Source: a virus
Lineage: Duplodnaviria; Caudoviricetes
Virus record (IMG/VR): IMGVR_UViG_3300027847_001698
DNA length: 64,000 nucleotides
Reading direction: 5' to 3' (one strand)
The translations under genes were made by a program, and so were the position numbers. Below, in pieces: positions 4,745 to 60,412 of this stretch. The notes below the pieces were generated by a model. The model saw only the letters and a list, made by a program, of their open reading frames with translations. It had not been told where the DNA came from and made no database searches. Numbering within the stretch: the stretch's first letter is position 1; every line of letters begins with the position of its first letter.

Positions 4745-6166
4745 CTATTTTAATATCTTTTCTTCTATTTGCCAATTCTTTTCTGTATAGAATCCAATCC
4801 GGTACTTTGCCCGATTGATCAAATTATCATCTCCTATATCGACTAAATCTATTACGACTGGTTGTTGTTTATCTGGATGAGATCTAACAACCCGCCCAAC
4901 AGCCTGTTCTAAATTAGAAACAGGAGTAGCCAATATTAAACAATCTAATATTTCTTTATTAGTACCGTCTCTAGCACTTCCATAAGTACTAAAAACTAAT
5001 CTACGCTGTAGATGAGCATCACGCTCATTCTTCGATCTTGGGATGAAGAAACCTACTTCTTCTTTGTTTTTACATGCCTGCGAGGCATGATCTAAAATTT
5101 TAATTCTATCTGCCAAAAATAATAAGTGTCTGGTCGACTTAGACACTTCCATGACCAATTTTTTTATAGCTTTTTTATACGGCTCGGACTTGACTAACAA
5201 ACTCAAATATCTAGCCGTGTCAAAAAACGGTTTAATATTGTTATCCCGATCGTACTTTGTAAGATGTGTAATGTAATTTTTATGATTTTTCATAACACCA
5301 TGATCAAATTTCAATAAGATCACTTTCGGTGCCATAGTGTCTATACCCGAGGAAACCGGTACGTATACCTGTCCAAGATGTTTATATATTATATCTGTAT
5401 TTCCATCTAATCTACTTGGAGTAGCAGACAAACCATAGATTCGTTTAGATGGAATCCAAATCGAAGTTCTAGAAAACTGTTCAGCACTTACCGAAGTATG
5501 ACATTCATCCCATATAGCAATTCCAATTTGTGCATCATTCAATACCTTCTTCATTAGTTCGGGGGGCTTCCGCTTAACCAAACTACAAAATGTTTGAACA
5601 GTTGTGATTATTATATCCTTTTGCAAATCTTCCTCAAATGAAGAAGACCTAAGCCTAGAGATATTATCTTCCGATATATCTGTATGCTCTAAAAACTTAT
5701 CGACCCATTGACTAGCTAAAGAGTCCTTATGTACAAATATTATTGATTTTTTTCCAATTGTACATATCGAGTGGATGCTTACTACTGTCTTTCCTTCTCC
5801 AGGACTTAAACATAGTATACCATTAGTATTCGTTTCAAACCACTTGATCGACTCTTTCTGTCTTTCATTTCTTGGGACGACCTTGGAGGTTATACTTATA
5901 TCCTTCCCTACAATACTTCTATCTGTTATCTGAAACATTGCAGGGAGTTCATAAAAACGTGGAATCATTAATTCGCGAGTTGACTTATCTGTATCGTAAT
6001 ATTTTCTAATATCAACATTTGGAGCATCACTATCTGCCGTTTGTTGATATGACCTGGATTGTCTAGTCAAATCTCGAATTATTCTTGCAAACCATTCCTT
6101 GTCCTTATTGGAATCAACTGGAATTCGAATTGCAGAATCTTTTATGAGAGTTTGACTACATCCCAT
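4745..6166 (-). CDS. Superfamily 2 DNA helicase (UvsW/ResIII-like)
   Basis: Walker A LSPGEGKT, DECH, SATP, QAVGRVVR. Start placed at the ATG at 6166, which overlaps the queD stop; the track ORF extends to 6193. Confidence 0.85.
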   Translation of the reverse strand: MGCSQTLIKDSAIRIPVDSNKDKEWFARIIRDLTRQSRSYQQTADSDAPNVDIRKYYDTDKSTRELMIPRFYELPAMFQITDRSIVGKDISITSKVVPRNERQKESIKWFETNTNGILCLSPGEGKTVVSIHSICTIGKKSIIFVHKDSLASQWVDKFLEHTDISEDNISRLRSSSFEEDLQKDIIITTVQTFCSLVKRKPPELMKKVLNDAQIGIAIWDECHTSVSAEQFSRTSIWIPSKRIYGLSATPSRLDGNTDIIYKHLGQVYVPVSSGIDTMAPKVILLKFDHGVMKNHKNYITHLTKYDRDNNIKPFFDTARYLSLLVKSEPYKKAIKKLVMEVSKSTRHLLFLADRIKILDHASQACKNKEEVGFFIPRSKNERDAHLQRRLVFSTYGSARDGTNKEILDCLILATPVSNLEQAVGRVVRSHPDKQQPVVIDLVDIGDDNLINRAKYRIGFYTEKNWQIEEKILK

Positions 6167-6602
6167 ATTGCGCCCACGAATTAGGAGTTTCAAACAACTT
6201 TACATTGATTAATTCTAATCCTGAAGTTGGCGGTAAATTGTCGTTGACTTGTTCAAAGCACCACCTTGATAATTCTTCTGCTGTTGGGATAAATGGAACT
6301 TTTATAAGATTCCATGTGTCCTTAAATGGTTCAAACATTTCAGCTATCTCTTTGTCATTCTCGTAATAAATAAATCCATGATCTAATACATCATGTACAT
6401 ATGTTGTCATTACATCTTTCAAATCCCCAAAATCAATAACCATTCCTTGTTCAGATGAGCCTGATTCGCTATTTAGATATCCTGAAACTGTACATTCTAG
6501 TCTATATCTATGACCATGGGGATTTCTACATTTACTTTTATGATTAGGGACTCTGTGACCTGCATCAAATTCTATAATTTTAGTTATTCTAATCATCTTC
6601 AC
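6156..6602 (-). CDS. queD: 6-carboxy-5,6,7,8-tetrahydropterin synthase
   Basis: FDAGHR, CRNPHGHRY, VIDFGDLK, LDHG, PTAEEL and ETPNSWA are characteristic QueD/PTPS motifs. Confidence 0.92.
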   Translation of the reverse strand: MKMIRITKIIEFDAGHRVPNHKSKCRNPHGHRYRLECTVSGYLNSESGSSEQGMVIDFGDLKDVMTTYVHDVLDHGFIYYENDKEIAEMFEPFKDTWNLIKVPFIPTAEELSRWCFEQVNDNLPPTSGLELINVKLFETPNSWAQYGM

Positions 6603-10753: not shown

Positions 10754-11806
10754 TTAAGTAACTAAATCTGCATTTGCAAGATATGTCTGACCATCATGAT
10801 CAACAATCTGTTCGCTGAAATCACCACTCATCATTGGACAAGTCCAATTACAACCTTTACAATAATGTTTATAGTCATACTTGATAGCATCTAGTAACTT
10901 GTCAGTGAAAACTCCGTCTGATGAAATGATATCATCTACATCTTTAATTAATGGAGATGCAACTCCCTTAACTCTAAGACACAATCTAAAACTTCCATCT
11001 GGTTCTATACTAACATTATGGAGATCTTTATTTAATGTACATTTCATCTTACTAGGGAGATATTTATATAACTCATCTAGTAATCCGGGAATATGTACTA
11101 GTAATTCCCCACTATCTGCTCCTGCTTTCAACTCATCAAAAATATCTCTGATCTCTTGATCCTGTGGGAGTAGAACTTCTGCTCCAACATTTGAGAAATC
11201 ATAATAAGGAGTTTTTTGATCATCTACAGCAGTTATTGAACTATAGATTCCTTTATCTGTTAATTCCTTTACCATCGTCAAGATGTAGGGAATTGATTCT
11301 TTCATTATGGTGATCTCTGCAACTACATCATCCGATATGCCATCTTTTTTCATAACAGCAAGATTCTCTAATCCCCATCTAGACTTCTTTGCAATATCAT
11401 CATTTCTACCAGGAATGAATGCTACAGGATCAACTGATGAAGTGAATCCTTTAAACTTTCCATACTTCTCATATACCTGATAAATCTTCTTTTTAGCTGC
11501 TGGAGTATTATTTGATATGACCGTGTAATTCATTTTGGTTTCATTAAGATATTTAATGATTCCTGGAAATGATTTTACAATTGTTGGCTCTCCGCCATAA
11601 ATTATGAGAAATACATGAGGATTATTTGCTCTAAGTCTTTCGAATATAGGAATCCATCCATCTGCATCTAATTCAGCTTTATGATAAGCTCTCATTAAAG
11701 GATATTCTTCTGGCATATCCTCATAATCTTTTACAATATTACAATACGAACATGCCAAGTTACAATGTCTTGTAATAAGGATATTTGCTATCCATACTTT
11801 ATTCAT
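10754..11806 (-). CDS. Radical SAM protein with C-terminal Cys cluster (SPASM/Twitch-like)
   Basis: CNLACSYC (CxxxCxxC) and GGEP; C-terminal cysteines KCTL, RLCL, CKGCNWTC. Confidence 0.88.
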   Translation of the reverse strand: MNKVWIANILITRHCNLACSYCNIVKDYEDMPEEYPLMRAYHKAELDADGWIPIFERLRANNPHVFLIIYGGEPTIVKSFPGIIKYLNETKMNYTVISNNTPAAKKKIYQVYEKYGKFKGFTSSVDPVAFIPGRNDDIAKKSRWGLENLAVMKKDGISDDVVAEITIMKESIPYILTMVKELTDKGIYSSITAVDDQKTPYYDFSNVGAEVLLPQDQEIRDIFDELKAGADSGELLVHIPGLLDELYKYLPSKMKCTLNKDLHNVSIEPDGSFRLCLRVKGVASPLIKDVDDIISSDGVFTDKLLDAIKYDYKHYCKGCNWTCPMMSGDFSEQIVDHDGQTYLANADLVT

Positions 11807-49813: not shown

Positions 49814-50158
49814 CTAATTTTTCCTCAGGTTCAATATTAATTCAGTTTGCTTATGTAATATAGAATCGTGTAAACAATTCAAGGTAGTTGAATCAAACAG
49901 AGTAACTGCTCTTCTACCAGCCTTCTCCAAAAAATCAAAATATTGAGTTATATGGGTTTCTACTTCCTCCATTTGAGAGATCGGATTCAATAACGATAAA
50001 GATATAGCTTTTATAATCGAATCATTTCCTTCACGGTATAACTCTTTCTTATCTTTGTTATCTAATATTTTAGATCTACTTCCTATCTTTGAAATCTTCC
50101 TAAGAAGTATTCTCTTAGTTTTTCTGTAACTTCCAACTTCAATTTTAATTTTTGCCAT
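49814..50158 (-). CDS. Hypothetical protein
   Basis: First gene of the long leftward block. Confidence 0.6.
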   Translation of the reverse strand: MAKIKIEVGSYRKTKRILLRKISKIGSRSKILDNKDKKELYREGNDSIIKAISLSLLNPISQMEEVETHITQYFDFLEKAGRRAVTLFDSTTLNCLHDSILHKQTELILNLRKN

Positions 50159-50368
50159 TTACTCATTTATTCTTTATATAAGTAACAGTATCTTATTTGT
50201 GAGTATAAAAAGATATATTATATATATTAATAATTGGAATACTTCTTATGTAGTATTCTGTGGTGGTAGCTGGTGGGATTTTTATTATCAATATTATTTA
50301 GAACATATTTAAAGAAGGTTCATCAACGATACAGCCTTCAAAAAGAAACTAAAAAAAGGAAACACAAA

Positions 50369-50596
50369 ATGGAAAGCAACGAACAAGTACCAGTACCAGT
50401 AGCGGAAGTAGAACTAGATGCATATGATTCAACTATTTCATCACTACAAGGCAAGTTCACTGCATTCGTAACTGAAGCTCAATCCGGAAAAGGAAAAAAA
50501 GCCTCTGCTCTTAGAGCAAGAAAACTAAGTCTCGAACTTAGAAAGGATCTACAAGAATTCAGATCAGCTTCAGTTACTAACGATAAAGCACACTAA
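50369..50596 (+). CDS. Small histone H1-like (Hc1-type) DNA-binding protein
   Basis: AAGGA RBS then MESNEQ...; GKKASALRARKLSLELRKDLQEFRSAS resembles the GNKAAGxRARKxSLEL...FRKxS signature of short bacterial H1-like proteins. Confidence 0.7.
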   Translation: MESNEQVPVPVAEVELDAYDSTISSLQGKFTAFVTEAQSGKGKKASALRARKLSLELRKDLQEFRSASVTNDKAH

Positions 50597-50611
50597 GATT
50601 TTATTTTTTAG

Positions 50612-50656
50612 TAAAAAAAAAGCGACTTAGGAATAACCCCCTAAGTCGCTTCTTTC
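50612..50656. terminator. Bidirectional intrinsic terminator between convergent genes
   Basis: A9-AGCGACTTAGG-loop-CCTAAGTCGCT-TCTTTC. Confidence 0.85.
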
Positions 50657-50666
50657 ACGTCTTGGA

Positions 50667-51203
50667 CTACTCTGGTGACTTCATCAACTTGATTCCGAAC
50701 ACTTGTTGGGCATCGGTGATGAACGAGGTCACCGCAGCATCCCGTGCACTCAAATGCAAAGCACGAAGTCTATCAATTTGATCATCGATTTGATGGAGGG
50801 CTGTTGCGTATTGTGTCGGCGTTGTCGCTGCCTCCACATCATGCTGAAGCATGTCGAATTCAGTACGACGTGACTTCGGAGGTGTGGGGGTAGATGACGG
50901 AGTAGCCACCACCATCTCCTCCACATCCAAATCAATCAGATGCGAAACATCCATATGACGTTTTCCCTTGATCCGGTTCTTTCCCTTGTTTCCTTTCTTC
51001 CACCTTTGCCTATCAATGGTGGTTATCCCGAGGATGTTGCAAATATTCGTCGACCGCATCGTGGGATATATGGTCGCGATTGCATTGTACTGCCCCAAAA
51101 GAATTCCCTTCTGATCTTCGGACCACATCCGGGAAATTCCTGAACGCTTCTTCTTCATACTGATCGGACCCAAAATAAGGTCCTGTTGGACGTTGATGGT
51201 CAT
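50667..51203 (-). CDS. Hypothetical protein, GC-rich relative to the genome
   Basis: GAGAGGGA RBS, basic N-terminal half, helical C-terminal half; ends at a strong terminator. Confidence 0.7.
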   Translation of the reverse strand: MTINVQQDLILGPISMKKKRSGISRMWSEDQKGILLGQYNAIATIYPTMRSTNICNILGITTIDRQRWKKGNKGKNRIKGKRHMDVSHLIDLDVEEMVVATPSSTPTPPKSRRTEFDMLQHDVEAATTPTQYATALHQIDDQIDRLRALHLSARDAAVTSFITDAQQVFGIKLMKSPE

Positions 51204-51236
51204 GATGTTCCCTCTCTGTAGAGATGTTTTTTGTGA

Positions 51237-51269
51237 AGGATGAAACTAAAGACCAAATAGTTTCATCCT
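51237..51269. promoter_or_regulatory. Perfect 12-bp inverted repeat in the divergent region upstream of the polymerase gene
   Basis: AGGATGAAACTA-(9 nt)-TAGTTTCATCCT; operator or leader hairpin. Confidence 0.5.
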
Positions 51270-51356
51270 GATTTAAAAGATATATATATAGTACAGATTA
51301 CTCATAAAACAAGAATTTATTTTAGAAATAAGGAATAACAGTTAAAGGAGCTTTTA

Positions 51357-54300
51357 ATGTATAAAATTACCAGCAGTCATGCTGATTGTAACAATTGCGA
51401 ATTACTAGATTGCGCGTCCGCCACATCTGATACCAACTGCAAGGATAACTTAAAGTCAGTAAACGTATTTATTGTTTCAGAAAATCCAAGTAAGGAAGAT
51501 ACCATCGGGGGGACATGCCTAGGTATAACATATCCACCCGGAACCCCATTGATAGGCAAAGGTGGAAAATTATTCAGGGAAGTATTTAATGATACAATTA
51601 TCCCTTTAAATATTAATTATTTTATTACAAACATGGTGTTGTGTCATAGTACGAAACCAGATGAATCTCCACAATCAAAGATTGCACATACAGAACATTG
51701 CAAACCAAACATGTTAAAAATGTTAGAGGTATGTGAACCTGATTTAATCATTTCATTAGGCGCAAATCCAATGAAAACATTTGGTATTCACGGAGGAGTA
51801 ACCAGTAATAACGGAAGAATGTTTTCATACACACACGAAGGAAAACAATATCCAGTATTAGTTGCAACTTCCCCTAATTATATTGACAAGAAAGGTGGAC
51901 TGAACTCTGAAGCTGGAGATGAATTCATATTGGCATTTAAAAATGCAGCAGCATTCTTAAATGGAGAGGAAATAGACGATGGGGCCGAAGAATCAGAAGG
52001 CCAGAAACATTTATTCAATATTGATCCTAAATATTACAGCGAAGATTACAGACTTGTAGATATTCAATATATCGCAAGACAACAAAAATTGATATTCATC
52101 TTTAGAGATAAAGATAATAATAAAATCTTCTATGAACAAGATCAACAAGATAAAAACTACTACTGGTACACTAATAATTCAGAGGGAAAGTTAATTGAAT
52201 CATTTGAAGATTTAACTCTTAGAGTTGGCAATTATAAGCAACGTGGATTAACCAGTAACTGCTATGAATCAGATATTAGACTACCTGAAAAACATGCAAT
52301 AGATTATTATATCCAATCAAAAGGAGAATGCAGTATTGAAAAACAAAATATTTTATTTTTTGATATTGAAGTCTATACTTATGACTATAAGGGTTTTCCT
52401 GGCGTACAAAAGGCCGAATGGCCAGTAAATGCTATTTCGTTTGCTTTAGATGATGACGATACAGAGATGTACCTTTACCATATTGAAGGGAGAATTGATT
52501 CACGGATAGAAGACGAAAAAGATAAATATCCAACTTTAAAAATCTTCAAAAGTGAAAATCAAATGTTAGAAGCATTTATAAAACGTATTCATGAATTGGA
52601 ACCAGATTATATTGTTGGATGGAATAGCATCCGTTTCGATATGAGTTATTTATATCAACGAATGATGAACATAAAAGTCAAGTTCAACAATATGTCCCCC
52701 TTCAAAAGTACATGGGTAGATGCAGAAAAGGGAAAATGTGATGTAACGGGTTATATATGTTATGACATGTTACAGTTATACAAAAACTTAACATATATAA
52801 ATGAGCCTAGTTATAAATTAGATAGTATTGCACAAAAGGTACTCAAGACTAATAAAATAGAATACACTGGCAGTTTAAATCATATTTATGAAAATGATAT
52901 TGCGACATTCTTAAAATATTATGCGACTGACACGGATCTTCTAAAAGGTCTTGATAAAGCATTAGGTCATGTTGCATTACAAGACGAGTTGAGACGAGCA
53001 GCAACAACAACTCACCATGGAGCAAATTCTACGACTGGACTTGCAGATGGGTTATTCAATTATGCATTGAAGACTGATGGATATGTAATGAAGAATTCCA
53101 GTAAGGGTTATAAAGAATCTATTATAGGTGCATATGTAAGAGATCCAATAGGTGGAGTATATGATTGGGTAATTGATTTTGATTATACTAGTTTGTATCC
53201 ATCTATCATCTGTTCATTTAACATTGGACCGAATACATGGTTGGCTAAAATCAATCCAACGTTGGCACACGATTACACCTATAAAACAGATGAAGTAACC
53301 GATAAGACGTTTGACATAACACTTGATCCCCTGTATAACCCCACAGTTGAACAATGGTCCTATGACACGTTTACAGCGTTTATAAAGGAACGTAATGCCA
53401 TTATAACCCCATCGGGTTGCATATTTAAAAATCACACAGAAGAGAAATCTATTTTCTATAAAATCATCAAAACCTTATTCCAAAAGAGAAAGGAATATAA
53501 AACCTTGATGTTTCAGTGTAAAGAATCTGGAGATTCATCAAATCAACAGATCTTTGATAATAGACAAATGGCATACAAGATTTTATTGAATAGTTTATAT
53601 GGCGTTTTGGCACAAGAATACTTTCGATTTTTTAATCTCGATTTAGCATCAACTGTTACATTATCAGGTAGAGAGTTAATTAGATTTGCTGGAGAACATG
53701 TAGATAATTGGATGATAGATGATACTAATACTGATATTAACTGTAACTTCAATGAAGATGTAGATAGTCAGAAGGAGTATTTCAAATATGCAGATACTGA
53801 TTCAGTATTCTTGCACGTTCAGCCTTATTTAGAAAAAAAGGGGCTTCCTGTTGACAAGGAAACAATCGTAGATGAAGCATTAAAAATTCAAACGTATCTA
53901 AATATCGAATTACTTCCAAGATATGCAATAATTCATAATATTGATCCTGTTGAAAGTATGTTTGAGTTAAAAAACGAATTGATATGTAGACGATATTACA
54001 CGTTGAGCACTAAAAAGAAATATGCTTTACATGTAGTTGTAAATGAAGGAGTAGATACAGATGAGGTTGATATTAAAGGTCTAGAAATAAAACGATCTGA
54101 TTATTCAGTGTTAACAAAAACAATGTTAACTAAAATATTAGATATGATTATAAGACCTGAAGGTCAACCAGATATTGATAAAATATTAGATTACGTTAGT
54201 GAGACTAAAACGTATGCAACTCAGTTAGCTATTGATGGCAATGCTGATTTATTCAAGAAAGTATCATTCAACAAACCATTAGAAGAATATAAAAATACTC

Positions 54301-54623
54301 CTCAACACATCAAAGGTATGTTAATATGGAATGCTCTAGAATATGAGTATTTCCAATTAGGTAGCACAGGTATCTTATATCCTCTAAAATCATTTGAATT
54401 ATTTAATGCACCAGATGAGATTCAAGATAACTTCCAGAATTTATTTCTAAAGAAGTTTGAGCAAAAGGATTTAGATGTTATTGTTCTCCCAGAGGACGTT
54501 GATTCATTACCTGATTACTACGGAGTAGATGTAAATAAAATTGTAGATTTTTCAGTTAATGATCGTGCTGATATATTATTGGAGCCACTAGTCAAAAAGA
54601 CAGATGACTTATTATTATGGTAA
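51357..54623 (+). CDS. polB: Family B DNA polymerase with N-terminal family-4 uracil-DNA-glycosylase-like domain
   Basis: Exo motifs FFDIEV, VGWNSIRFD, YYATD; Pol motifs DFDYTSLYPS, KILLNSLYG, YADTDS. aa 1-~203 align by eye to UDG4 (CxxC, SENP, PLIGKGG, FITN..LC, HC, LGA). C-terminal DDLLLW is a clamp-binding-like peptide. Confidence 0.95.
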   Translation: MYKITSSHADCNNCELLDCASATSDTNCKDNLKSVNVFIVSENPSKEDTIGGTCLGITYPPGTPLIGKGGKLFREVFNDTIIPLNINYFITNMVLCHSTKPDESPQSKIAHTEHCKPNMLKMLEVCEPDLIISLGANPMKTFGIHGGVTSNNGRMFSYTHEGKQYPVLVATSPNYIDKKGGLNSEAGDEFILAFKNAAAFLNGEEIDDGAEESEGQKHLFNIDPKYYSEDYRLVDIQYIARQQKLIFIFRDKDNNKIFYEQDQQDKNYYWYTNNSEGKLIESFEDLTLRVGNYKQRGLTSNCYESDIRLPEKHAIDYYIQSKGECSIEKQNILFFDIEVYTYDYKGFPGVQKAEWPVNAISFALDDDDTEMYLYHIEGRIDSRIEDEKDKYPTLKIFKSENQMLEAFIKRIHELEPDYIVGWNSIRFDMSYLYQRMMNIKVKFNNMSPFKSTWVDAEKGKCDVTGYICYDMLQLYKNLTYINEPSYKLDSIAQKVLKTNKIEYTGSLNHIYENDIATFLKYYATDTDLLKGLDKALGHVALQDELRRAATTTHHGANSTTGLADGLFNYALKTDGYVMKNSSKGYKESIIGAYVRDPIGGVYDWVIDFDYTSLYPSIICSFNIGPNTWLAKINPTLAHDYTYKTDEVTDKTFDITLDPLYNPTVEQWSYDTFTAFIKERNAIITPSGCIFKNHTEEKSIFYKIIKTLFQKRKEYKTLMFQCKESGDSSNQQIFDNRQMAYKILLNSLYGVLAQEYFRFFNLDLASTVTLSGRELIRFAGEHVDNWMIDDTNTDINCNFNEDVDSQKEYFKYADTDSVFLHVQPYLEKKGLPVDKETIVDEALKIQTYLNIELLPRYAIIHNIDPVESMFELKNELICRRYYTLSTKKKYALHVVVNEGVDTDEVDIKGLEIKRSDYSVLTKTMLTKILDMIIRPEGQPDIDKILDYVSETKTYATQLAIDGNADLFKKVSFNKPLEEYKNTPQHIKGMLIWNALEYEYFQLGSTGILYPLKSFELFNAPDEIQDNFQNLFLKKFEQKDLDVIVLPEDVDSLPDYYGVDVNKIVDFSVNDRADILLEPLVKKTDDLLLW

Positions 54624-58038: not shown

Positions 58039-59016
58039 ATGTCAATTGAATCTGATGCATTAGATTCGTTATGGGTCGAAAAACATCGTCCCAAGGAACT
58101 AGCTGAAGTAGTACTAGAAAAGGAACATCAAGATAAAATAGAAGAATGGTTAAAGAAAGGGGCGATTCCTCATTTATTAATGGTAGGTCCAGCAGGATCA
58201 GGTAAGACCACCACCGCTAGAATTATATGCAATTATATTATTAAGGATGATGCAGATATTTTAGAACTGAATGGTTCTGATCAAACTGGAGTAGATACTG
58301 TTAGAGATTCTATTAAAGGATTTTTAAAATCTCCCCCACATCTTAGTGCTCATAAAATAGTATTCATTGATGAGTTTGATTATATGTCCCAAAATGCACA
58401 AGGTGCACTTAGAAATATATTTGAGACATATGCAGGCACAGGCAGATTTGTATGTACGGGTAATTATAAATCAAAGATCATAGATGCATTACTATCAAGA
58501 TTTCAAATTTTTGAGATGAAAACAGTATCTCAAGAGTTTGCGATTAAATATTGTCAAAGTATTTTAGATTTTGAAAAGATAGAATATGATATTGATACGG
58601 TATCGGTTATTGTTGAAAGTCTTATTCCTGATGTTAGAAAGATTGTTGGTACATTACAACAAACCGTAATAGATGGAAAGCTACACAAGATTGATAAAAA
58701 TTCTATAGCTACAGCCGAGAAAAAACTAGTAGGGTTAATCTGTATGATGTTAGACTCTATTGGAACTATTGGTTGTAAAGAAATAGTTAATTCTAGTATT
58801 GTAGAAGTACATGAATTATTAAATCAAGGAGAGGTAGATTATCTTTCTATTTATGATTTATTATTTCATAATAAGAAGATTCCAGTATGGGCGAAGATCG
58901 TTGTAAATAGATATAGTAATATGCATTATCAATGTTTATTTCCGAACATGCATTTTGTTGCAATGGTTTATGAGTGTATACAGAATGGTAAGAAATATCA
59001 CGAAACATTTGAATAA
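58039..59016 (+). CDS. Sliding-clamp loader ATPase subunit (T4 gp44/RFC-small-like)
   Basis: LWVEKHRP, PHLLMVGPAGSGKTT, ELNGSD, DEFD, AQGALR, LLSRF (SRC-like). Confidence 0.92.
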   Translation: MSIESDALDSLWVEKHRPKELAEVVLEKEHQDKIEEWLKKGAIPHLLMVGPAGSGKTTTARIICNYIIKDDADILELNGSDQTGVDTVRDSIKGFLKSPPHLSAHKIVFIDEFDYMSQNAQGALRNIFETYAGTGRFVCTGNYKSKIIDALLSRFQIFEMKTVSQEFAIKYCQSILDFEKIEYDIDTVSVIVESLIPDVRKIVGTLQQTVIDGKLHKIDKNSIATAEKKLVGLICMMLDSIGTIGCKEIVNSSIVEVHELLNQGEVDYLSIYDLLFHNKKIPVWAKIVVNRYSNMHYQCLFPNMHFVAMVYECIQNGKKYHETFE

Positions 59017-59039: not shown

Positions 59040-59378
59040 ATGATTAAAACTATACAAGAACGATTAAAGAACATAGAAGAAATAAAAGATACAGTCTCAG
59101 AGTTTGTTGAGGACTTAAATACTGTGATGGGAGAACCAGTTTTTTCCCATGAATCAGATATTGTATATTATAAAATATCTAATATAAAAACTCCATTATT
59201 AGAAGTACATATTATGACAAGTAGGCTTGATGGTTTCCCTGTTAAACTTCATTGTGAAATAGATACAAGATTAGGATTCAGTGCTGAATCCGTTGAGGAA
59301 TTGGAATCTAATTTATCTATGTTTTCAAATCAATCGGTTATTACTGAATTGTTATCTAGAATTAAATCTAAACTATGA
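59040..59378 (+). CDS. Hypothetical protein
   Basis: Co-oriented; stop overlaps the primase start. Confidence 0.6.
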   Translation: MIKTIQERLKNIEEIKDTVSEFVEDLNTVMGEPVFSHESDIVYYKISNIKTPLLEVHIMTSRLDGFPVKLHCEIDTRLGFSAESVEELESNLSMFSNQSVITELLSRIKSKL

Positions 59379-60412
59379 ATATAGACAATCTTAGAAAGCT
59401 AATAAAAGATAAAAAATTATGGGTAAAGGAAACTACTAAAAATATAATATGCATATGCCCTTATTGTGGTGATCACAAAGATGATAGAAAAAAAGGACAT
59501 TTGTATGTTAGTAAGAATCCTGAAATTCCAGTGGTTCATTGTTTTATTGGGGGATGTGCTAAAGGATTAGTACAATTTATTGAAGATATTTCAGGTTCAA
59601 GAGTTGCTGCTGATTTAATCATTTCTAAAGAAGAAGTGAATAAAGCAAAAAAGAAGTCTAAATCAGAAGGAGCAGTACAAAAAAATCAAGATGTATATGA
59701 TATACCTAAACTCGACATTAAACCATTTCCAATGAAGGTGTCACACATCAAAAAAAGAACTAATGGTAATTTGACACCTGAACAGGTACCAAATCTTATT
59801 TTTGATTTTCAAACATTCTTTAGTATGAATAATCTTGGAAGTGTAGTTGAAAATGAAGTTGGGGAATTTTTAACTACCCTGCAACGTCAATATGTTGGAT
59901 ACTTAGTTGAAAATCAATCATATATAGTATGTAGAAATATTGATCCTAAATCTGAATTTAAACATAGAAAGATTATGATCAGAGAACGGAATTTTGGATT
60001 ATTGGATTACTACAAAGTAGATGGGGGTAATCCTGATAGTGATAAAATTGTGTTAGCAGAAGGAGTTTATGATGTATTGGGTGAATATTCAGCCAACTCA
60101 TTAAAGTACAAAGGCAATGTTAGATTATATGCATCTGGACAATCGTATTCTTATGCATCATTACTTAAAGCTGTTTTATTTGACGAATGTTTATGTAAAG
60201 CAGATGTTGTTATTTTAAGTGATTCTAATATCAGCACCCCATTTTATAGAAAATTATTAACTAACTATAAGCACGTTATAAAGAATTTAAAAGTGTTTTA
60301 TAATAAAAATAAAGGAGGAGATTTTGGAAGCTTCCCACTCGCACCTGTGGAACTCAGAGTACAACCATACAAAAAATGGAATGGCTCTACAAATAAACAA
60401 TATCGCAGATAA
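59375..60412 (+). CDS. DNA primase (zinc finger + TOPRIM)
   Basis: ICPYCGD...HCF..C zinc-binding domain; LAEGVYD and LSD TOPRIM motifs. Confidence 0.75.
   Translation: MNIDNLRKLIKDKKLWVKETTKNIICICPYCGDHKDDRKKGHLYVSKNPEIPVVHCFIGGCAKGLVQFIEDISGSRVAADLIISKEEVNKAKKKSKSEGAVQKNQDVYDIPKLDIKPFPMKVSHIKKRTNGNLTPEQVPNLIFDFQTFFSMNNLGSVVENEVGEFLTTLQRQYVGYLVENQSYIVCRNIDPKSEFKHRKIMIRERNFGLLDYYKVDGGNPDSDKIVLAEGVYDVLGEYSANSLKYKGNVRLYASGQSYSYASLLKAVLFDECLCKADVVILSDSNISTPFYRKLLTNYKHVIKNLKVFYNKNKGGDFGSFPLAPVELRVQPYKKWNGSTNKQYRR

What the first reader, a model, noticed from the sequence alone, without database searches (positions are those of the whole stretch)
51357..51965. Family B polymerase fused to an Fe-S UDG4-like domain that appears catalytically degenerate
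Seen: the four Fe-S cysteines and the TN uracil-pocket Asn are retained, but GEGPG is SENPS, the stacking Phe of PFVG is Leu (PLIG), and the catalytic His of HPAY is Ser (SPNY). Known: UDG-like fusions are described for some phage family A polymerases (SPO1-type), archaeal PolB senses template uracil with a different pocket, and poxvirus UDG acts as a processivity factor. Inference: a non-excising reader of uracil or modified bases, or a processivity module on a PolB. It would fit a genome with non-canonical bases (compare queD and GT9, or the dU DNA of AR9/PBS1).
Basis: partly seen in the sequence, partly recalled or inferred. Interest (0 to 1): 0.75.

Follow-up and report, generated by a model that had tools for sequence, protein, structure and literature searches.

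The report
Phage polymerase with degenerate UDG domain
A widespread uncultured marine phage makes its T4-type DNA-copying enzyme with an iron-sulfur uracil-glycosylase-like domain on the front. In this phage that domain has lost its key catalytic histidine, and across more than 100 related polymerases the catalytic residues were lost many times while the four iron-sulfur cysteines were kept.

Summary
ORF 51357-54623 (+) encodes a 1088-aa protein. Residues 1-203 form a family-4 UDG fold (Pfam above cut-off; AF2 pLDDT 94; Foldseek top hits 4zby, 1ui0, 1vk2). A ~30-aa acidic linker joins it to a T4-like family B polymerase with intact exonuclease and polymerase motifs.

- [AS]ENPG and Leu-for-Phe (PL[IV]G) are traits of a large uncultured UDG-PolB family, not decay of this copy.
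- The water-activating Glu and the uracil-pocket Asn are kept.
- Special to this phage is His172Ser in motif B. It comes with 15 other changes at conserved sites and faster divergence of the domain.

Across 113 relatives the catalytic set changes state at least 11-13 times. The four Fe-S cysteines are kept in 111 of 114.

My best reading (confidence 0.55) is a weakly excising or non-excising DNA-handling or structural Fe-S module on the replicase. Relatives with the full residue set probably inspect template uracil, as the SP15-like UDG-PolA enzymes do.

I found no support for dU or hypermodified DNA. I found no paper and no isolated phage with a UDG-PolB fusion. First readers of this scan noted the fusion in two other genomes.

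The parts
51357..54623 (+). Whole gene: 1088-aa UDG-like domain fused to a family B DNA polymerase
   Evidence: Single ORF. Pfam finds UDG, DNA_pol_B_exo1 and DNA_pol_B. PHROG 262 DNA polymerase, E 2e-127.
51357..51965 (+). N-terminal family-4 UDG-fold domain (aa 1-203)
   Evidence: Pfam PF03167 above cut-off. AF2 pLDDT 93.7. Foldseek top hits 4zby, 1ui0, 1vk2, UdgX and 9qhs.
51387..51398 (+). C11-N-N-C14, first two putative [4Fe-4S] ligands
   Evidence: Aligned to the CxxC of TM0511. Cys in 112-113 of 113 fused relatives.
51477..51491 (+). Motif A, S41-E-N-P-S45 (canonical family 4 is GE[AG]PG; this clade's consensus is [AS]ENPG)
   Evidence: Glu42 is retained. Gly45Ser is seen in 10 of 113.
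51504..51533 (+). Clade-specific 10-residue insertion IGGTCLGITY (aa 50-59), a beta-hairpin in the model with a conserved Cys and a YPxG signature
   Evidence: Present in only 8 of 140 aligned sequences. Strands 52-54 and 57-59 in the AF2 model.
51546..51566 (+). P64-L-I-G-K-G-G70, the counterpart of PF[VI]GxAG, with Leu at the base-stacking position
   Evidence: Fused clade Leu 103 of 113; stand-alone Phe 23 of 27.
51627..51644 (+). T91-N92-M-V-L-C96: uracil-pocket Asn and third Fe-S Cys
   Evidence: Aligned to NVVKC of TM0511. In the 113 UDG-detectable fused rows of A1, Asn 105 and Cys 113.
51699..51701 (+). C115, fourth Fe-S Cys (in HCKPN)
   Evidence: Invariant column of the 140-row alignment.
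51870..51890 (+). Motif B, S172-P-N-Y-I-D-K178 (family consensus HPS[YF][VI]xR). The catalytic His is replaced by Ser and the intercalation-loop Arg by Lys.
   Evidence: The codon is TCC. It is identical in independent seawater contigs.
51966..52061 (+). Acidic linker and start of the PolB N-terminal domain (aa 204-235)
   Evidence: pLDDT falls below 50 at aa 212-216. The conserved I-P-x-K-Y-Y..Y-R-L-V-D-V-Q motif starts the PolB part in all relatives.
52323..52937 (+). 3'-5' exonuclease domain with Exo I (FDIE), Exo II (NSIRFD) and Exo III (YYATD)
   Evidence: Pfam DNA_pol_B_exo1 at aa 323-491. Invariant D/E columns. Residues read.
53067..54293 (+). Polymerase domain with motif A (DFDYTSLYPS), motif B (KILLNSLYG) and motif C (YADTDS)
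   Evidence: Pfam DNA_pol_B at aa 571-979..
54564..54620 (+). Conserved C-terminal tail (LLEPL...LLLW), candidate clamp-binding tail
   Evidence: Conserved in the 93-row PolB alignment. Clamp binding is inferred from T4 gp43. A clamp-loader gene lies at 58039-59016.

Best explanation
The gene encodes the phage's replicative T4-type family B DNA polymerase. Its exonuclease and polymerase sites are intact. On its N-terminus it carries, through a ~30-aa acidic linker, a [4Fe-4S] family-4 UDG-fold domain.

The fusion is the hallmark of a large clade of uncultured viral PolBs. Most members keep the water-activating Glu, the uracil-pocket Asn and the leaving-group His. Those members probably inspect or excise uracil in the single-stranded template ahead of the active site. 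This has been shown by cryo-EM and assays for SP15-like UDG-PolA enzymes, and the mpox E4 UDG contacts the template ahead of the replication site.

In this phage the His is Ser. The intercalation Arg is Lys, the conserved T-x-N-P loop is gone, and the domain has diverged faster than the polymerase. It is therefore most likely a very slow or non-excising module.

What selection keeps is the folded Fe-S domain itself. Its likely role is to guide or bind the template strand, possibly still sensing uracil, or to serve as a structural part of the polymerase.

Shown here: the fold, the residue states, the phylogenetic pattern and the faster divergence. Inferred: the position at the template entry, the loss of excision and the non-catalytic role.
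For: Fold and family.

Size of the family:
- 298 hits to the domain; nearly all of the best 50 are N-terminal on PolBs of 830-1570 aa.
- 296 PolB hits; the best 120 are 1025-1135 aa, most with PF03167.

Residue census over 114 full-length members: Fe-S Cys CCCC in 111, Glu in 67, Asn in 73, His in 68.

On a tree of the PolB part, the catalytic set changes state at least 13 times. Well-supported branches alone force 11. His alone changes 9 times. The window sits in a 12-row clade with 9 intact members, so its His-to-Ser change is private.

A 35-member subclade has deleted motif A, the PLIG loop and motif B. It still matches the UDG profile (hhalign probability 99.95%, E 1e-38) and keeps all four Cys.

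The window deviates at 16 of 55 conserved positions; relatives with the full residue set deviate at 2-8, except P0153/P0154 at 18 and 10. Its UDG-domain identity is about 10-17 points below expectation at equal PolB divergence.

The Ser codon is real and stable in the population.

Roles of the residues: His178 and Asn91 hydrogen-bond uracil, Glu52 activates water, and Arg184 intercalates (PMC10359453). Glu53 and His178 are the catalytic residues of phiLo PolA, whose UDG domain engages the 5' template ahead of the fork (PMC13697223). N4-like PolAs carry an inactive UDG domain that was proposed to act as a processivity module (PMC10201439).

The 193-kb record holds no AP endonuclease and no PolX.
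Against: - No activity was measured.
- Glu42 and Asn92 are kept and Arg178 is conservatively replaced by Lys. Family-2 UDGs (MUG/TDG) excise without the motif-B His (my own knowledge), so Ser172 may only slow catalysis.
- His became Ser in three lineages: the window, P0176 and P0047. That could mean a selected alternative chemistry or specificity rather than decay.
- All PolB-fused domains have Leu for Phe, so even the members I call intact have unproven activity.
- I could not obtain the position of the domain relative to the polymerase or the DNA.
- The genome record is only about 61% complete, so missing BER genes are weak evidence.
Confidence: 0.55

Rival explanations
1. The domain is still a working glycosylase. 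It excises uracil, or a related lesion, from the template ahead of the fork as the SP15-like UDG-PolA enzymes do. Glu42 and Asn43 do the chemistry, and Ser172 or Asn174 replaces His as hydrogen-bond donor to O2.
For: - Glu42, Asn92 and the four Cys are kept, and the fold is confidently predicted.
- The clade's ENPG motif puts an Asn where families 2 and 3 (GINPG, GMNPG) have their water-positioning Asn (my own knowledge of those motifs).
- His became Ser three separate times.
- An ATP-dependent DNA ligase is encoded in the record.
Against: - The motif-B His is invariant in all 27 stand-alone relatives and in 104 of 113 fused ones. It is described as a key catalytic residue.
- 15 further substitutions at conserved sites, including the T-x-N-P loop and the intercalation Arg.
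- Accelerated divergence of the domain.
- No AP endonuclease or PolX in the record.
Confidence: 0.22
2. The pocket has been re-tuned to recognise, without cutting, a modified base of the phage's own DNA or of host DNA. The polymerase could then tell self from non-self template or tolerate a hypermodified base.
For: - A clade-specific 10-aa hairpin insertion lies between motif A and the PLIG loop, which flank the base pocket in family-4 UDGs; its position relative to the pocket in the model was not examined.
- Recurrent His-to-Ser change.
- UDG-PolA fusions are enriched in phages with T-modified DNA.
- QueD and a radical-SAM gene lie in the window.
Against: - No thymidylate-synthase-family hydroxymethylase, dUTPase, dCMP deaminase or TGT/DpdA in 193 kb.
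- QueD alone does not make modified DNA.
- The insertion is shared with relatives that keep His, so it is not tied to the loss.
Confidence: 0.1
3. The domain is a decaying vestige with no remaining function, kept only because it is in frame with an essential gene.
For: Faster divergence and many substitutions at conserved sites. Repeated loss of catalytic residues across the family.
Against: - No member of the family examined has clearly shed the domain. The two short rows look truncated.
- Even the 35-member clade that deleted the catalytic loops keeps a ~170-200-aa domain with all four Cys.
- The window's domain folds with pLDDT 94.
- It is identical across independent seawater samples.
Confidence: 0.08

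Closest known systems
N4-like family A DNA polymerases with an N-terminal inactive family-4 UDG domain (Czernecki et al. 2023, PMC10201439)
   Same: A replicative phage polymerase carries an N-terminal family-4 UDG fold whose catalytic residues are not conserved. A non-catalytic role, such as processivity, has been proposed.
   Different: The polymerase here is family B (T4/RB69-like), not family A. In N4-like enzymes a helix and the His-bearing hairpin are deleted. Here the fold is complete, and only His, with some neighbouring residues, is substituted. The two fusions are not homologous as fusions.
SP15-like UDG-PolA enzymes of phages YerA41 and phiLo (Missoury et al. 2026, PMC13697223; PDB 9qhs)
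   Same: A UDG domain is fused to the replicase. The structural match to the window's domain has Foldseek probability 1.0. It gives an experimentally supported model in which the UDG domain receives the 5' template strand ahead of the fork.
   Different: Those enzymes are family A. They keep Glu53 and His178 and do excise dU. Their phages have T-hypermodified DNA, and most also encode PolX and ligase (phiLo lacks PolX). The window's protein lacks the His, and its record shows no PolX or sign of T modification.
Stand-alone family-4 UDGs (UDGa: T. thermophilus 1ui0, T. maritima 1vk2/1l9g, S. tokodaii 4zby) and UdgX
   Same: Same fold, same four Cys ligands of the [4Fe-4S] cluster, the same Asn in the T-N-x-V-x-C strand, and Glu in motif A.
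   Different: Motif A is SENPS rather than GE[AG]PG. Leu replaces the stacking Phe. Motif B is SPNYIDK rather than HPS[SA][LV][LV]R. There is a 10-aa insertion after motif A. The domain is covalently joined to a polymerase.
Poxvirus and herpesvirus UDG acting in trans with a family B polymerase (vaccinia D4-A20-E9; mpox E4-F8)
   Same: A UDG fold is physically coupled to a family B replicative polymerase. In mpox the UDG contacts the template ahead of the active site (as summarised in PMC13697223). D4 is part of the processivity factor (PMC4889955).
   Different: Those UDGs are family 1, have no Fe-S cluster, are separate subunits and are enzymatically active. The phage also encodes a clamp loader, so clamp-based processivity is expected.
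Uracil read-ahead pocket of archaeal family B polymerases
   Same: It works alike in principle: a non-excising uracil sensor sits N-terminal to the exonuclease domain of a PolB and scans the template strand.
   Different: That pocket is part of the PolB N-terminal domain itself, not a UDG fold (my own knowledge). No homology is implied, and nothing was tested here.

Membership tests
Family-4 uracil-DNA glycosylase (UDGa) | UDG alpha/beta fold | tested here: met
   AF2 pLDDT 93.7. Foldseek to 4zby, 1ui0 and 1vk2: probability 1.0, TM by target 0.75-0.77. Pfam PF03167 above cut-off.
Family-4 uracil-DNA glycosylase (UDGa) | Four Cys ligands of a [4Fe-4S] cluster (CxxC ... C ... C) | tested here: met
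   C11, C14, C96 and C115 align with the Cys of TM0511 and are invariant or nearly so. The cluster itself was not observed.
Family-4 uracil-DNA glycosylase (UDGa) | Motif A GE[AG]PG with the water-activating Glu | tested here: inconclusive
   The window has SENPS. The Glu is kept, but three of the five positions differ. [AS]ENPG is the consensus of the PolB-fused clade.
Family-4 uracil-DNA glycosylase (UDGa) | Motif B HPS[SA][LV][LV]R with the catalytic His | tested here: not met
   The window has SPNYIDK. His is present in 27 of 27 stand-alone and 104 of 113 fused relatives.
Family-4 uracil-DNA glycosylase (UDGa) | Uracil-recognising Asn (UdgX N91 equivalent) | tested here: met
   N92 in TNMVLC.
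Family-4 uracil-DNA glycosylase (UDGa) | Aromatic residue stacking on the flipped base (PF[VI]G) | tested here: not met
   Leu65. This holds for the whole fused clade: Leu 103 of 113 against Phe 23 of 27 in stand-alone relatives.
Family-4 uracil-DNA glycosylase (UDGa) | Uracil excision activity | not testable with these tools
   Needs a biochemical assay.
Family B DNA polymerase, T4/RB69-like replicative type | Exo I, II and III motifs and Pol motifs A, B and C with their acidic residues | tested here: met
   FDIE, NSIRFD, YYATD, DFDYTSLYPS, KILLNSLYG and YADTDS. Pfam and PHROG hits. 26-29% identity to T4-like and cyanophage gp43.
UDG-PolA fusions (SPO1-like, N4-like, SP15-like) | Family-4 UDG domain N-terminal in one chain with the replicative polymerase | tested here: met
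UDG-PolA fusions (SPO1-like, N4-like, SP15-like) | The polymerase belongs to family A | tested here: not met
   The polymerase is family B. This protein works like those fusions but is not a member.
Uncultured UDG-PolB fusion clade (defined here) | CxxC..ETN..[AS]E[NA]P[GA]..PL[IV]G..TN..LC..CKxN domain, followed by IPxKYY..YRLVDVQ and a PolB | tested here: met
   The window branches inside the clade. Its nearest relative has 59% identity in the PolB part.

The most novel reading that the evidence does not exclude
The conserved and essential feature of this viral PolB clade is the [4Fe-4S] domain itself, not glycosylase chemistry. On this reading, a phage B-family replicase recruited an Fe-S module, as a structural element or a redox or DNA-sensing element, in parallel to the Fe-S clusters of eukaryotic B-family polymerases. 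Uracil excision would be an ancestral accessory activity that lineages, this phage included, shed repeatedly.
Probability: 0.25. Interest if true: 0.75.

Novelty: new variant of a known kind. Interest (0 to 1): 0.55.

Why it matters
UDG-polymerase fusions have been studied only for family A enzymes. There, the fused domain was recently shown to repair template uracil ahead of the fork.

This work shows the same idea on T4-type family B replicases, across a large and diversified clade of uncultured viruses. This copy and its nearest kin come from seawater; contigs of more distant members were binned with archaeal MAGs. The clade includes full-length, split, intein-bearing and N-terminally extended forms.

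The clade offers a natural series of variants:
- members with the full catalytic residue set;
- single-residue variants such as this His-to-Ser copy;
- forms with the catalytic loops deleted but the four Fe-S cysteines kept.

That series makes two questions directly testable. What does a polymerase gain from a UDG fold once excision is lost? And does a phage replicase need an iron-sulfur cluster?

On the practical side, annotation pipelines label some of these proteins 'uracil-DNA glycosylase family 4'. For this copy that label is probably misleading.

Tried and rejected
- AF2 of aa 1-235 without an alignment failed (pLDDT 31). It was replaced by the alignment-based model.
- The word-index search with the domain found only the protein itself. 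The exhaustive HMMER scan was needed.
- Complex prediction of the UDG domain (aa 1-205) against the PolB core (aa 236-1030) returned no answer, score 0.00. It gives no evidence either way on whether the domain docks on the polymerase.
- Megablast of 15 kb around the gene against GenBank phages found no match.
- tblastn of the window's domain, and of two relatives' UDG+PolB N-termini, against 50,697 phage records found no isolated phage with a UDG-PolB fusion. The only hits were PolA- or DnaE-fused domains and one 4-kb faecal fragment.
- Literature searches for a UDG-PolB fusion found nothing.
- Read laying gave too little variation for any dN/dS estimate. There were four differences in the polymerase part of one contig and one 2-base gap in a low-depth contig, which I treat as possible error.
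- One metatranscriptome run held a 0.07 share of the words. I did not lay it, so I make no claim about expression.
- I rejected a mis-joined ORF. There is no stop or frame break, and more than 100 relatives have the same architecture.
- I rejected a dU-DNA genome of the AR9/PBS1 type. No supporting genes were found, and the uracil-pocket Asn and Glu are retained.
Full report
**What is there.** Between 51357 and 54623 on the + strand lies one uninterrupted ORF of 1088 codons. Pfam places a UDG-superfamily domain at aa 34-179 (35.6 bits; cut-off 24.3). It places a PolB exonuclease domain at aa 323-491 and a PolB polymerase domain at aa 571-979. PHROG 262 'DNA polymerase' matches aa 237-998 at E 2e-127.

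The finding's coordinates (51357-51965) are residues 1-203, which is exactly the UDG-like domain.
- C11-N-N-C14, C96 and C115
- S41-E-N-P-S45
- P64-L-I-G67
- T91-N92
- S172-P-N-Y175

The window is part of a 193.5-kb IMG/VR virus record, estimated 61% complete. The gene opens a plus-strand replication block that includes a clamp loader (58039-59016) and a primase (59375-60412). The block starts where GC skew changes sign.

**Is the UDG assignment sound?** Yes.
- phmmer of aa 1-230 finds the family-4 UDGs of T. thermophilus, T. maritima and S. tokodaii at E 2e-5 to 6e-5.
- A profile of 140 relatives matches TM0511 at E 1e-50 over the whole domain. The CxxC, N-V-V-x-C, C and HPS columns are in register. 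That profile includes 27 stand-alone UDGs, which inflates the score but not the register.
- AlphaFold2 without an alignment failed (pLDDT 31). With the alignment it gave mean pLDDT 93.7.
- Foldseek against the PDB then ranks family-4 UDGs first (4zby, 1ui0, 1vk2; TM by target 0.75-0.77). UdgX follows, then the UDG domain of the phiLo family A polymerase 9qhs, all at probability 1.0. Families 5 and 2 come far behind.

**The polymerase part is a working-looking T4-type PolB.** These motifs are present and fall on invariant columns of a 93-row alignment:
- Exo I: FDIE
- Exo II: NSIRFD
- Exo III: YYATD
- Pol A: DFDYTSLYPS
- Pol B: KILLNSLYG
- Pol C: YADTDS

The nearest isolated phages are a Microcystis phage, cyanophages and T4-like jumbo phages. 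They share 26-29% identity and align only from about residue 215-330 onward, so they lack the N-terminal domain.

**The fusion is a family, not a one-off.**
- An exhaustive HMMER scan with aa 1-235 gave 298 hits at E below 1e-3 and 49 below 1e-10. Nearly all of the best 50 carry the domain at the N-terminus of a long protein.
- Pfam on a sample confirmed UDG+PolB in several layouts: full-length (about 1070-1130 aa), a split form that ends within the polymerase domain (830-850 aa), intein-bearing forms, and forms with an extra 160-200-aa N-terminal extension.
- A search with the PolB part gave 296 hits below 1e-10. The best 120 are 1025-1135-aa PolBs, most with PF03167 precomputed. Some are named 'uracil-DNA glycosylase family 4' by JGI, and some are filed under archaeal MAG names at NCBI.
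- None of 50,697 GenBank phage records has the fusion, apart from one 4-kb faecal fragment. The window's domain there hits only PolA- or DnaE-fused UDG domains.
- I found no paper describing a UDG-PolB fusion.
- First readers of this scan noted the same architecture, with AENPG and HPS intact, in two other genomes.

**Re-reading the motifs in family context.** In the 140-row alignment, the 113 PolB-fused domains compare with the 27 stand-alone relatives as follows.

| Position (window residue) | PolB-fused (113) | Stand-alone (27) |
|---|---|---|
| 41 (S) | Ala 77, Ser 20, Gly 7 | Gly 24 |
| 42 (E) | Glu 100 | Glu 22 |
| 43 (N) | Asn 72, Ala 23 | Ala 17, Gly 4, Asn 4 |
| 45 (S) | Gly 68, Ala 22, Ser 10 | Gly 25 |
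| 65 (L) | Leu 103, Phe 4 | Phe 23, Leu 4 |
| 92 (N) | Asn 105 | Asn 27 |
| 172 (S) | His 104, Ser 4 | His 27 |

So 'SENP' and 'PLIG' are signatures of the fused clade. They co-occur with a conserved Glu, Asn and His in most members, and they cannot be read as decay of this copy.

The literature assigns these roles (UdgX study PMC10359453; phiLo PolA study PMC13697223):
- Water activation to the motif-A Glu.
- Stabilisation of the leaving uracil to the motif-B His together with the Asn.
- DNA intercalation to the motif-B Arg.

The window keeps the Glu and the Asn, replaces the Arg with Lys, and replaces the His with Ser.

**The His-to-Ser change is real and private.**
- The codon is TCC.
- The exact protein is recorded on 11 contigs, and its two cluster mates differ at one or two other residues.
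- The gene is near-identical in at least 11 marine or seawater metagenome runs from many studies.
- Contigs from runs not flagged as possible sources are identical over the UDG part, including that codon.
- On a FastTree of the PolB part (113 rows, UDG columns excluded), the window lies in a well-supported 12-row clade. Nine of its members keep Glu, Asn, His and Pro. The loss therefore sits on the window's own terminal branch.

**This copy has drifted more broadly.** Among 60 members with the full catalytic set, 55 positions of the domain are at least 80% conserved. The window differs at 16 of them. These include Gly45Ser and Glu48Asp in motif A, the T-x-N-P loop (Thr104Ser, Asn106Gln, Pro107Ser), and His172Ser, Ser174Asn and Arg178Lys in motif B. 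Most intact relatives differ at 2-8.

At equal divergence of the PolB part (50-60% identity), pairs of intact members share about 54-55% identity in the UDG domain. The window shares 37-46% with them. The two closest relatives, P0153 and P0154, have their own small deletion after the P-[LI] motif and deviate at 18 and 10 of the 55 positions, so comparisons with them are less clean. The other seven comparisons show the same gap.

**The family-wide pattern is the most informative result.** Over 114 full-length members, the four cysteines are all present in 111. The other three look N-terminally truncated or miscalled. By contrast, Glu is kept in 67, Asn in 73 and His in 68.

The catalytic set changes state at least 13 times on the tree. 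Strongly supported branches alone force 11. His alone changes 9 times, and the mean for shuffled labels is 38. The tree is unrooted, so gains cannot formally be told from losses. But the stand-alone relatives and most branches carry the residues, so losses are the economical reading.

One 35-member subclade has deleted motif A, the PL[IV]G loop and motif B. It gives no Pfam UDG hit, yet it still has a 160-200-aa N-terminal domain with CxxC, C and C-K-x-N. That domain matches the UDG profile by hhalign at probability 99.95%, E 1e-38. Part of that score comes from the shared start of the PolB.

No examined lineage has clearly discarded the domain. Selection therefore maintains the folded Fe-S domain on the polymerase independently of glycosylase chemistry.

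**How it most likely works.** For members with the full residue set, the best model is the one shown experimentally for the SP15-like UDG-PolA enzymes. There the fused domain receives the 5' single-stranded template ahead of the active site and flips out and excises dU. The polymerase then bypasses the abasic site, mostly with dA (PMC13697223). The same paper notes that the mpox UDG E4 sits at the equivalent place on a family B polymerase.

Here the domain precedes the PolB N-terminal domain. In family B enzymes that domain borders the template entry, which is where archaeal PolBs have their own uracil pocket (my own knowledge, not tested).

For this phage I infer a domain that binds or guides the template strand and may still recognise uracil through Asn92, but excises very slowly or not at all. 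That amounts to a structural or DNA-handling Fe-S module. N4-like PolAs are the precedent for an inactive UDG domain kept on a replicase (PMC10201439).

A processivity role of the poxvirus D4 kind is less needed here. The phage encodes a clamp loader, and the polymerase has a conserved C-terminal tail of the sort that binds the clamp in T4. That last point is inference.

**Alternatives.**
- The domain may still be active. Glu, Asn and a basic intercalation residue remain. Family-2 enzymes work without the His (my own knowledge). His became Ser in three lineages (window, P0176, P0047), which hints at a tolerated or selected replacement.
- It may have been re-tuned to another base. A clade-specific 10-residue hairpin (IGGTCLGITY) with a conserved Cys sits between motif A and PLIG. 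However, relatives that keep His share it.
- A functionless vestige is unlikely, given the retention pattern.

**Non-canonical DNA.** I found no support.
- Absent from the 193-kb record: thyA-family enzymes, thyX, dUTPase, dCMP deaminase, TGT/DpdA, PolX, ExoIII-type and EndoIV-type AP endonucleases.
- No second UDG is present.
- An ATP-dependent ligase is present.
- QueD (window 6156-6602, minus strand) lies between a helicase and topoisomerase II subunit genes. A radical-SAM gene lies 4 kb away. There is no transglycosylase.
- Because the record is incomplete, these absences are weak evidence.

**Verdict.** This is a new variant (family B) of a known kind (UDG-replicase fusions, including ones with an inactive UDG domain). 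The window's copy is one of many lineages in which the catalytic residues have eroded while the Fe-S scaffold persists. Interest is moderate. It is higher for the family-level pattern than for this single copy.

Noticed in passing
P0165-P0209 (relatives), N-terminal ~160-200 aa: A 35-member PolB subclade has deleted motif A, the PL[IV]G loop and motif B of the UDG domain and gives no Pfam UDG hit. It keeps all four Fe-S cysteines and still matches the UDG profile (hhalign 99.95%).
   Followed up: partly
window 51504-51533 (aa 50-59): A 10-residue hairpin insertion (consensus GGxCxGxxYPxG) lies between motif A and PLIG. It has a conserved extra Cys and is present in only 8 of 140 aligned sequences, most of which keep the catalytic His.
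   Followed up: partly
relatives P0176 and P0047: The motif-B His is replaced by Ser (SPNY, SPTF) in two further lineages whose nearest relatives keep His. The same replacement therefore recurs three times.
   Followed up: partly
relatives P0003 (1571 aa), P0015 (1546 aa), P0031 (1223 aa), P0013 (1281 aa): Some UDG-PolB genes are 150-500 aa longer than the rest. P0031 has a Pfam intein splicing domain inside the exonuclease/polymerase region.
   Followed up: partly
relatives P0024, P0025, P0030 and others (830-850 aa): A branch with the AEAPA form of motif A ends within the PolB polymerase domain (profile position about 238 of 453). This suggests a split polymerase whose C-terminal part is a separate gene.
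   Followed up: no
relatives P0045, P0053, P0044 (971-1289 aa): Another branch carries an unannotated 160-200-aa extension in front of the UDG domain. Proteins of 460-560 aa with the UDG domain at residues ~200-370 also exist, and one of them has a weak AAA hit.
   Followed up: no
window 6156-6602 (-) and 10754-11806 (-): A QueD/PTPS gene sits between a ResIII/SNF2-type helicase and topoisomerase II subunit genes, with a radical-SAM gene nearby. The record has no TGT/DpdA.
   Followed up: partly
window ~50000-52000: GC skew and AT skew change sign where transcription diverges: minus-strand genes lie upstream and the polymerase block runs on the plus strand. This may be a replication origin or simply a strand switch of the genes.
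   Followed up: no
G000:C1:69034-69591 (-), outside the window: An ATP-dependent DNA ligase (PF01068, E 1.5e-20) lies in a 438-aa frame.
   Followed up: no
window 52276 in run X9: One low-depth seawater contig lacks 2 bases inside the polymerase gene. This is probably an assembly error or a defective variant.
   Followed up: no
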